From Eledone cirrhosa (taxonomy: Eukaryota): a stretch of DNA of 64,000 bases. Both the position numbers and the translations under genes were made by a program. Below are positions 28,066-31,000 of this stretch, one piece after another. The notes beneath the pieces were generated by a model that was not told the DNA's origin, made no database searches, and saw only the letters and a list, made by a program, of their open reading frames with translations. The stretch is taken from the NCBI GenBank assembly GCA_964016885.1, contig OZ024757.1, forward strand, positions 42,594,001 to 42,658,000. Direction: 5' to 3'. Numbering within the stretch: the first letter of the stretch is position 1; each line of letters begins with the position of its first letter.

Positions 28066-31000
28066 ATGGCCATGCTACAGCTAGGCCTGGTCCTGATTAT
28101 GTGTGTCTGCCTGGTTAGCTCTGAAAGTGATGACAAAAGCATCAAACCAGAAAATGGGTGAGTCATCTATATGATGTCTATATAGCATATTGAAAATGAA
28201 AAAACTATGTTAAGATGGGTTCATGTATAATTAATATATGACTTTCTCCATCCTATTCTTATCTGTGGTACCTTTCTCTCATGATAGCAACTACTATATA
28301 TTGATCTTTCTTATCTGTGGTACCTTTCTCTCATGATAGCAACTACTATATATTGATCTTTCTTATCTGTGGTACCTTTCTCTCATGATAGCAACTACTA
28401 TATATTGATCTTTCTTATCTGTGGTACCTTTCTCTCATGATAGCAACTACTATATATTGATCTTTCTTTTCTGTGGTACCTTTCTCTCATGATAGCAACT
28501 ACTATATATTGATCTTTCTTATCTGTGGTACCTTTCTCTCATGATAGCAACTACTATATATTGATCTTTCTTATCTGTGGTACCTTTCTCTTATGATAGC
28601 AACTACTATATATTGATCTTTCTTATCTGTGGTACCTTTCTCTCATGATAGCAACTACTATATATTGGATCTTACTTATCTGTGGTACCTTTCTCTCATG
28701 ATAGCAACTACTATATATTGATCTTTCTTATCTGTGGTACCTTTCTCTCATGATAGCAACTACTATATATTGATCTTTCTTATCTGTGGTACCTTTCTCT
28801 CATGATAGCATCTACTATATATTGGATCTTACTTTGCTGGTCATTTTCTCAATATTAATCCTTTCGATTGGTTTGATTAAGTATTAATAATTGTTTCTAC
28901 TTTTGGCACAAGGCCAACAATTATGCAGTGTATTACTGGTACTTTATTTTATCGACCCTGTAAGGATGAAAGGCAAAGCTAACCTCAGCGAGATTTGAAC
29001 TCAGAACGTAAAGGGTCATAACTCTATGCTGTAAAGCATGGTCTCTGACGCTCTACCGATGCTGCCAATTCACTGCCCTTATTAAGTATTAATAATTAAG
29101 TATTAATAATAACTGTTTCTACATTTGGCACAAGGCCAGCAATTACCCCATTACTGGTACTTTATTTTATCGACCCCGTAAGGATGAAAGGCAAAGTGAA
29201 CCTCGCCGGGATAATAATAACAACACTTAAACATTTTAATGTTTTATTTTGCTGACTACACCCAACTGATATTACATTTGAAGTATGATAGATTATCTCT
29301 ATACTTAAGACTGAAAGATGGAGTTGAACTTTTTGTTATAAATATAGTAAAAATATATTTTGAAGATGTATTTTTGCATTCTTAAATTTATATTTGATCC
29401 ATGCACTAGCTTTTATAGACTTTTGTAATGCCTATGTTGTATGTAATTTTGTCAGTATATGATGTTTTGCATTATATAGCAGCATTTTTTTCTCTATACC
29501 AGCTTGTTTATAAGTTTTTTAATGCTTCTAGCAGCTTTCATATGCTTCTTGCTTTCCTCTCTTATATCAATGTTAATATCAATTATTTATGCCGTCTTCT
29601 CATATGTGGTATCCCCAGAATGTTCTTTGACAAGTTTATCTGTGTTTTAACTTTTGATTTGTACTCGGATGATTCCAGCCTTGTGCTTGGATGATTCCAG
29701 CCTTGTGCTTGGATGAAACAATTGTTAGTAATTAAATGTTCTTAAACACTCTTTGATTGTTATTTATAAAATATATAAATATATATGTGTATATATAAGT
29801 TTATCCTGGGCTCAATCGGGGGTAACCACAATAAGTAAGGTACTCAATACAAAGCAGTGTATAAATATTTAATATAGGAAAGCTTCTACAGGACTAGAAC
29901 TGTTTCATTCGTGAGAAATCATCAGGAAGCTGACTGTCCAAGATAGCTTCCTGATGATTTCTCACGAATGAAACAGTTCTAGTCCTGTAGAAGCTTTTCT
30001 ATATTATATATATATATATATTTATAAAGTATATATATATATATAATATCATCATCATCCTCATTTTACGTCCGCTTTTCCCTGCTTGCAAGGGTGGGAC
30101 AGGAACTGTTTCTGGCTTGATTTCTACAGCTGGATGCCCTTCCTAACACCAACCTCATTTACAGTGAGTGCTGGGTGCTTTTTTGCCGCGGCACCTCCAC
30201 GACCACTTTGCAGTATATATATATATATATATATATACACACACACATAAATAGAAATAGAAGCGGCATATAAACCCACTGAACTGAAAAAGCTGGATAT
30301 CGGCACACATATACATATATATATATATATGTGTGTATGTGTGTGTATATATATATATATATATATATATACATACATATGTATGTGTGTGTATGCATAT
30401 CAAAGTTATATACACTGTACAAGTACTTGTTTTTGTTTCATGATAAAAGTCATCCTGTCTATTCTGTAAATGATGATGATGATAATGATGATAAATGGTG
30501 ATGGTGATGACGTTTTTCTGTAATTCTTCCTATTTCAGTATCTACTACTACTTTTACGCTCCTGAAAAATTCACAGCTGCTGATGGACTCAATATAACAT
30601 TTGTGTTGTCTGGGAAGATAACAGCTATCACAACAGTCACCGCAAACTTCTTAGATGGGAACACAACTCTAGCAACTGTATCTGAAGTTATTTCCCTTGG
30701 TTAGTCATTTCTTTCAACCTTTTTTAGTCTGTGTTTGTCTTCCAATGAATGACTAAAGCCTGATAACGACCACTTTGCAGTGGAGTGATCATCATTTCTA
30801 CAGCTGAGTAAACTGGAGCAATGTGAAATAAAGTGTCTTGCTCAAGGAGACAACACATCACCCGGTCTGAGAATTGAACTCACAACGTTTCGATTGAACT
30901 GTATATATATATATATATATACCCATATATGCAAGCGTGGAACACGGACGTTAAACGATGATGATGATGATATATATATATATATATATATATATACAGT

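What the first reader, a model, noticed from the sequence alone, without database searches (positions are those of the whole stretch)
29871..30005. 135-bp palindrome consisting of two intact hammerheads back to back
Two identical 51-nt ribozyme motifs (29881-29931 minus, 29945-29995 plus) are separated by only 13 nt, in the TEP intron after the signal-peptide exon. A transcript of either strand contains the ribozyme's antisense immediately before the ribozyme. Inference: fold-back pairing would sequester the sense ribozyme and stop it cutting the host pre-mRNA, a built-in self-inhibition. The stem II base is a non-canonical U-U.
Basis: partly seen in the sequence, partly recalled or inferred. 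Interest (0 to 1): 0.75.

Follow-up and report, generated by a model that had tools for sequence, protein, structure and literature searches.

The report
Mirror-image Penelope retroelement stump with hammerheads
The palindrome and its two back-to-back self-cutting-RNA motifs are real, but they are one of probably thousands of similar scars left by a known kind of jumping gene, most likely a copying by-product rather than a built-in off switch.

Summary
Observation confirmed. The 135-bp palindrome is the core of a 209-bp insertion (29797-30005) of a Hydra-clade Penelope-like element (PLE): two 5'-truncated end pieces head to head, one with the 75-nt 'tail', one without, in a TA-rich site. The same hammerhead lies about 200 nt upstream of a Hydra-type RT/endonuclease ORF in 22 of 30 ORF loci. 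The genome holds 14,004 exact tail matches; 42 of 70 sampled have an inverted arm. The U-U at stem II is a Hydra-clade trait (14 of 25 published families). Fold-back would indeed mask the ribozyme (about 82 kcal/mol), but nothing points to a purpose, and the host TEP-like gene appears broken. Residual interest: 5' ends pile up at the hammerhead's first base (53 of 84 loci), 29-31 nt behind a TATA box, with no excess at the cleavage site. The stumps therefore likely copy a sense, uncut RNA up to its transcription start. Cleavage and expression are untested. The layout is in print (PMC8557442, PMC3846280), and this scan noted such stumps before on other DNA.

The parts
29797..30005 (.). Whole insertion: two 5'-truncated ends of a Hydra-clade Penelope-like element, head to head, in TA-rich DNA
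   Evidence: Matches to family copies; flanks printed
29797..29870 (-). 'Tail' of the long arm (about +62 to +136 from the first base of stem I); absent from the other arm; continues into the ORF in coding copies
29881..29931 (-). Type I hammerhead motif of the long arm; predicted cut between 29887 and 29886
   Evidence: sequence
29932..29942 (-). 11 nt of the element's own sequence upstream of the hammerhead (forms most of the spacer)
   Evidence: same letters upstream of long copies; extension length 11
29943..29944 (.). 2-nt link at the junction, not matching the element's upstream sequence (inferred untemplated)
   Evidence: sequence compared
29945..29995 (+). Type I hammerhead motif of the short arm, sense to the host gene; predicted cut between 29989 and 29990
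   Evidence: sequence
29996..30005 (+). End of the short arm at the first of the family's two 3' ends (about +62), running into (TA)n
28158..30538 (+). Host intron 1 (GT..AG, phase 2 at both ends) of a TEP/alpha-2-macroglobulin-like gene

Best explanation
This is a 209-bp head-to-head pair of truncated ends of a Hydra-clade Penelope-like retroelement, likely made in one insertion event when the element's reverse transcriptase copied the 5' end of its own uncut RNA twice. Shown: family identity, link to the ORF, two fixed 3' ends, a sharp 5' edge, matching subfamily on both arms. Inferred: transcription starts at about the first base of stem I, 29-31 nt behind a TATA box; copying starts at the two tail ends (+62 and +136) on nicked (TA)n DNA, runs out of template at the RNA 5' end, and the strands are joined at microhomologies, either by fold-back of one cDNA or by joining two cDNAs primed from both sides of the break. 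This copy went 11 nt past the usual edge, so its long arm likely came from a read-through or earlier-starting RNA; that accident left both ribozymes whole. In host pre-mRNA the hairpin would mask the sense ribozyme as a side effect.
For: Dispersed family: 2,419 exact 15-mer cores, 14,004 exact tail 24-mers, reversed-pattern controls 0. Head-to-head pairs: 236 with gap 0-10 nt, 278 with 0-30, 8 with 31-60. Hammerhead 194-205 nt upstream of the ORF anchor in 22 of 30 best ORF-5' loci; ORF motifs RWR and DKT in 25 of 30 each, CxCX5C, YIG, CxxC, CxH in L099, as defined for Hydra PLEs. 36 of 40 opposite-strand pairs have one short and one long arm, 4 two short, none two long. 5' edge: 53 of 84 core-anchored loci end within -6..+5, 2 between 6 and 57, 29 at 58 or more; tail-anchored control: 32 of 70 within -5..+6, 0 between -50 and -11. 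TATA-like box at -29 to -31 in 82 of 110 long copies. Arms share loop 2 in 56 of 68 pairs against 38% expected. No excess of junctions at the cleavage site: 59 against 108 at a control microhomology. Literature.
Against: No RNA data, so the start site is inferred from DNA ends and a TATA motif only. D. virilis Penelope has a TATA-less internal promoter. 24 of 70 tail-anchored copies end inside the hammerhead or tail, and 16 of 110 long copies lack the TATA match. Samples come from the start of one contig and some loci are segmental duplicates. Only 9 rare variants are shared by both arms against 175 on one arm, so same-template origin rests on subfamily sites. Fold-back and twin priming are not told apart. 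Pfam gave no family for the ORF pieces. No clear target-site duplication could be called and no empty site was found.
Confidence: 0.85

Rival explanations
1. The palindromic form is selected, or built in, to silence the ribozyme inside host introns.
For: Fold-back is predicted to exclude the hammerhead fold by about 82 kcal/mol, co-transcriptionally. A preprint abstract reports hammerhead retrozymes excluded from introns and exons, so lone active ribozymes may be harmful in genes.
Against: About 60% of sampled tail copies are inverted pairs whatever their place (42 of 70); most junctions damage stem I; Naiad PLEs without canonical hammerheads form the same inverted structure; the lone arm folds marginally; the host gene looks broken. 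Intron against intergenic enrichment was not tested.
Confidence: 0.07
2. Same element, but the 5' edge marks a splice acceptor or a sequence-driven stall (self-complementary AGCT), not a transcription start.
For: A YAG sits at -1..+1 in nearly all long copies, one subfamily has a pyrimidine tract before it, and the D. virilis Penelope intron ends at the 5' end of helix I. Many junctions are centred on AGCT.
Against: No shared upstream exon appears at junctions and many ends keep the AG. The AGAT subfamily, which lacks the palindrome, has the same edge. Solo copies and an ORF-bearing copy (L108) begin there too.
Confidence: 0.2
3. Head-to-head repeats arise by self-priming on an antisense RNA template (Arkhipova et al. 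2013).
For: Proposed in print for rotifer PLEs; would explain identical arms.
Against: The edge falls at the spacing expected behind a sense-strand TATA box, and in vitro a PLE primes on sense RNA at the two tail ends.
Confidence: 0.08
4. A miniature inverted-repeat DNA transposon or microRNA hairpin.
For: Short perfect hairpin; sub-threshold Rfam miRNA hits.
Against: Arms are asymmetric, junctions differ among loci, solo copies abound and the sequence is contiguous with an RT ORF; the miRNA hits are far below gathering scores and reflect any long hairpin.
Confidence: 0.02

Closest known systems
Hydra clade of C-terminal EN+ Penelope-like elements (Craig et al. 2021, PMC8557442; passages, section 11 and parts of the supplement read)
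   Same: RWR/RWK, DKT, CxCX5C linker, CxxC and CxH motifs; (TA)n targets; type I hammerhead with 4-bp stem III; U.U at 10.1/11.1 in 14 of 25 listed families; an inverted 5'-truncated copy is noted for Penelope-13_HM. The N-terminus agrees by eye with Hydra-1_Ajap and Hydra-1_Obim.
   Different: Not the listed Hydra-1_oBim family (its hammerhead differs). Loop 3 is 8 nt with a central CUAG, against 1-3 nt in the listed families. The tail is about 75 nt, against 30-40 described. The 3' UTR is long and microsatellite-rich.
Inverted pLTR plus tail insertions of EN+ PLEs (Arkhipova et al. 2013, PMC3846280; passages, abstract and Discussion read)
   Same: Head-to-head inverted repeat, tail on one side only, palindrome at the junction, TATA and Inr-like motifs in the pLTR.
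   Different: There the inverted copy abuts long elements and antisense self-priming is proposed; here most copies are 140-210 bp stumps with a sharp common 5' edge.
Poseidon PLE of Anolis in vitro (Frangieh et al. 2024, PMC11167929; parts 1-2 of 4 read)
   Same: Two internal priming sites flanking the tail, downstream of the hammerhead; AT-rich targets; uncut RNA is the main substrate.
   Different: Other clade; there the ORF starts inside the hammerhead; inverted products were not addressed in the parts read.
PLE hammerheads and metazoan non-LTR retrozymes (Cervera and de la Pena 2014, PMC4209133, parts 1-2 of 4 read; preprint 10.64898/2026.07.22.740005, part 1 of 5)
   Same: Type I hammerheads in pLTRs; pairs on opposite strands 100-700 bp apart were noted; a palindromic loop 3 could allow dimers (duplex -12.8 against hairpin -1.4 kcal/mol).
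   Different: G10.1-C11.1 is replaced by U.U (a natural variant, PMC3088659 passage); this copy is not a tandem array, so not a retrozyme.

Membership tests
Type I hammerhead ribozyme | Core C3 U4 G5 A6 N7 G8 A9, G12 A13 A14 A15, U16 H17 | tested here: met
   Read from the sequence
Type I hammerhead ribozyme | Three helices, with support from variation | tested here: met
   94.7% of cells paired on 48 distinct of 83 rows; one pair in stem I changes C-G to A-U in 10 rows, likely one event; loop 2 varies while stem II stays. No double change in stems II or III.
Type I hammerhead ribozyme | Watson-Crick pair at 10.1-11.1 (usually G-C) | tested here: not met
   U.U in 335 of 337 copies (the search pattern favours it). 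Known natural exception and common in Hydra PLEs.
Type I hammerhead ribozyme | Reaches an Rfam hammerhead gathering score | tested here: not met
Type I hammerhead ribozyme | Self-cleavage | not testable with these tools
   No assay; no genomic excess of ends at the cut site
EN+ Penelope-like elements | Single ORF with RT and GIY-YIG-type endonuclease next to the pLTR | tested here: met
   L099 in three frames, broken; 22 of 30 ORF loci carry the hammerhead. By motif reading; Pfam gave no hit.
EN+ Penelope-like elements | Hammerhead in the pLTR, inverted 5'-truncated copy, tail on one side | tested here: met
EN+ Penelope-like elements | Target-site duplication (optional) | tested here: inconclusive
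   Both flanks are TA-rich; a loose 25-nt direct repeat 29761-29785 / 30021-30045 may or may not be one
Hydra clade | RWK-type and DKT motifs | tested here: met
   RWR and DKT each in 25 of 30 loci
Hydra clade | CxCX5C linker, CxxC and CxH near the C-terminus, C-terminal endonuclease | tested here: met
   L099:3277-3894
Hydra clade | (TA)n target preference | tested here: met
   Flanks printed
Hydra clade | Placement in an RT tree | not tested
   Only by-eye agreement with published proteins
Non-LTR retrozyme | Tandem hammerhead-bearing non-coding units | tested here: not met
   Single inverted pair here; the family has an ORF

The most novel reading that the evidence does not exclude
The stumps are the genomic record of a 'strong-stop' step in Penelope-like retrotransposition: a sense, uncleaved RNA that starts at the hammerhead is copied from both tail ends into the two sides of one DNA break, and the copies meet at the RNA's 5' end. 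This would map the promoter from DNA alone, settle the sense-or-antisense question for inverted PLE ends, and make such elements a mass source of thousands of perfect intronic double-stranded RNAs in this genome.
Probability: 0.5. Interest if true: 0.55.

Novelty: new member of a known kind. Interest (0 to 1): 0.25.

Why it matters
The single locus is ordinary. The family is useful because how Penelope-like elements make their inverted ends is still open in the papers read, and thousands of stumps with two fixed 3' ends and one sharp 5' edge make the sense-template, copy-to-the-RNA-start model directly testable. If transcribed within introns the hairpins would also be substrates for RNA editing; that is untested here.

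Tried and rejected
RNA evidence: no RNA holder listed, so expression, editing and cleavage could not be looked at; the three contig sets laid (one sample) only show that the sequence is highly repeated. Rfam: no hammerhead at gathering score; miRNA hits rejected as generic hairpin matches. Cleavage footprint in DNA: no excess; the test is weak because stem I itself supplies a microhomology. A cap-G signature at junctions was considered and dropped: the extra C can be templated. Empty site: none found, the left flank is itself a repeat. A homologue search with one TEP exon found nothing; a second search gave P0001. Pfam gave no family for six PLE-type proteins. One search used an ORF beside L058 that is only 52% identical to the L099 RT, so it describes a sister family: named hits include argonaut, corals and sea cucumbers. 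The sigma-70 scan is irrelevant to an animal promoter. Literature searches for a PLE strong-stop or twin-priming model gave one unrelated listing and none (also 9, 21, 62, 93, listings only); subscription papers are not covered, and the Lunse et al. paper on PLE hammerhead dimers was not held. PMC11300833, PMC6765202 and PMC2377424 were seen as passages only.

Full report
1. Observation. The palindrome is as described: 61-nt arms matching at 60 positions, a 13-nt spacer, and two identical 51-nt motifs on opposite strands, 5' ends facing each other. It folds at -108.5 kcal/mol, z -25. Each motif has the full hammerhead core, a 6-bp stem I, a U.U plus 3-bp stem II, a 4-bp stem III and a GUA triplet (read from the sequence). 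Rfam does not recognise it and one arm folds no better than shuffles. It lies in intron 28158-30538 of a + strand gene with a signal-peptide-like first exon and A2M_recep exons downstream. The window is G000:C18:42594001-42658000 of a 3.0-Gb genome, probably an octopus; that is an inference, not a call result.

2. It is a dispersed repeat, larger than the palindrome. Exact matches: 1,641 for a 26-mer, 2,419 for a 15-mer core, 14,004 for a 24-mer of the downstream tail, which several subfamilies share; reversed controls were 0. The minus arm continues through that tail to 29797; the plus arm stops at 30005 in (TA)n. Eleven of the 13 spacer letters are the element's own upstream sequence. Head-to-head pairs are common: 278 with up to 30 nt between the cores, 236 of them with 10 or fewer, and 8 with 31-60. 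Of 70 tail-anchored copies (the first 72 places listed, less one not fetched and one duplicate), 42 have an adjacent inverted arm. Extrapolated, that is several thousand palindromes; the sample is from the start of one contig.

3. The parent element. In L099 the hammerhead and tail run straight into a broken ORF with RT-like motifs and a C-terminal endonuclease. Of the 30 best loci for this ORF's 5' end (L099 itself among them), 22 carry the hammerhead 194-205 nt upstream; the other 8 are cut or rearranged there. RWR and DKT occur in 25 of 30 each; CxCX5C, YIG, CxxC and CxH are in L099. These are the features given for the Hydra clade (PMC8557442 section 11), and the N-terminus agrees by eye with published Hydra proteins. 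Pfam gave no hit and no tree was built. The published octopus family Hydra-1_oBim has a different hammerhead, so this family is not the one listed there.

4. The ribozyme. In that paper's File S2, 14 of 25 Hydra-clade families have U at both 10.1 and 11.1 (my count); PMC3088659 reports the U.U as a natural variant and the best tolerated mismatch. Within this family stem I shows one compensatory change, C-G to A-U in 10 of 48 distinct rows, probably a single event, and loop 2 varies widely while stem II does not. This supports selection on the fold in the source elements, not at this site. Loop 3 is self-complementary at its centre and could give a dimer. PLE hammerheads are reported as weak in vitro or protein-assisted and dispensable for insertion.

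5. How the stumps form. Two 3' ends dominate: 56 of 124 arms end at +55 to +75 and 55 at +126 to +147; 36 of 40 pairs have one short and one long arm, none two long. This matches the one-sided tail in print and the two priming sites found in vitro. The 5' ends pile up at the first base of stem I: 53 of 84 core-anchored loci (the first 100 places, merged) within -6..+5, 2 at 28 and 35, 29 at 58 or more. The tail-anchored control, free of that anchor bias, gives 32 of 70 within -5..+6, 3 at -10..-6, none from -50 to -11, 11 long, and 24 spread over +7..+84. Long copies have a TATA-like box starting 29-31 nt upstream in 82 of 110 cases, none found in 16, and a CCAAT motif in 87. I infer that transcription starts at the hammerhead and that the enzyme runs off the RNA's 5' end. 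The arms of a pair share loop 2 in 56 of 68 cases against 38% expected, but share only 9 rare variants against 175 one-sided ones: one RNA or one source locus is likely, and fold-back cannot be told from twin priming. Junctions at the cleavage site are not in excess (59 against 108 at a control site), in line with an uncut template. The window's copy, at -11, is outside the main peak.

6. The self-inhibition idea. Folding predicts that the hairpin excludes the hammerhead by about 82 kcal/mol on the host strand and that it forms as the RNA is made. But the layout is a general product of PLE insertion, also in Naiads that lack canonical hammerheads; most junctions clip stem I; and the lone arm's hammerhead fold has about 1% weight (tertiary contacts are not modelled). 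The host gene shows exons 1 and 2 and then only late exons from 39173; no thioester motif was found, and exon 2 (phase 1) does not fit the next detected exon (phase 0), so it may be a broken copy or mis-assembled. Whether selection favours palindromes in introns was not tested. No RNA run was listed.

7. Novelty. The layout is described (PMC8557442, PMC3846280; opposite-strand hammerhead pairs in PMC4209133). Earlier notes of this scan reached the same class on other DNA, one with the RNA-start idea; they are unchecked and were seen after my own analysis, except that they led me to PMC3846280. Unlike two of them, I found no trace of cleavage in this family. Searches for a strong-stop or twin-priming model of PLEs found nothing relevant, within a library that lacks most subscription papers. 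Verdict: new family of a known kind, ordinary locus, interest 0.25.

Noticed in passing
window 28060-56315 (+): TEP/alpha-2-macroglobulin-like gene with exons at 28060, 30539, 39173, 42749, 43314, 44671, 47974, 56207; the middle, including the thioester motif, was not found and exon phases do not fit across 30700-39172. Broken copy or mis-assembly.
   Followed up: partly
L086 (G000:C17:27616877) and L014 about -300: Telomere-type repeats (TTAGGG on the cDNA strand) sit at the 5' truncation junction of two copies, as if telomerase had extended the cDNA end.
   Followed up: no
window 59184 (-), 11842 (-), 11164 (+), 55723 (-): Further hammerhead-like cores of other families; those at 59184 and 11842 have a G-C stem II and a minimal palindromic stem III.
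   Followed up: no
window 41244-41717 (-): Remnant of a PLE-type endonuclease with a CxCX5C linker and YVG motif, probably another Hydra-clade family; no Pfam support.
   Followed up: partly
window 30076-30214 and 31117-31255; 30792-30880 and 30998-31086: Inverted copies of abundant repeats; the first pair (94% over 139 nt) brackets exon 2 and could loop it out.
   Followed up: no
window about 28255-28830: 52-53 bp tandem repeat in intron 1.
   Followed up: no
window 16506-16569 (+): tRNA-like Rfam match (33 bits), probably the head of a SINE (inference).
   Followed up: no
window 34571-36847 and 53189-54940 (+): Long LINE-type RT frames, with more fragments at 14-25 kb and 45-53 kb; class recalled, not tested.
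   Followed up: no
window 2-412 (+): Open frame resembling the C-terminal part of an NSUN/RsmB-type RNA methyltransferase; label recalled, not tested.
   Followed up: no
L099 about 3900-4250; L009, L097: The element's 3' UTR is long and largely made of TA, TG and CA runs, with about 150-bp subrepeats before the promoter.
   Followed up: partly
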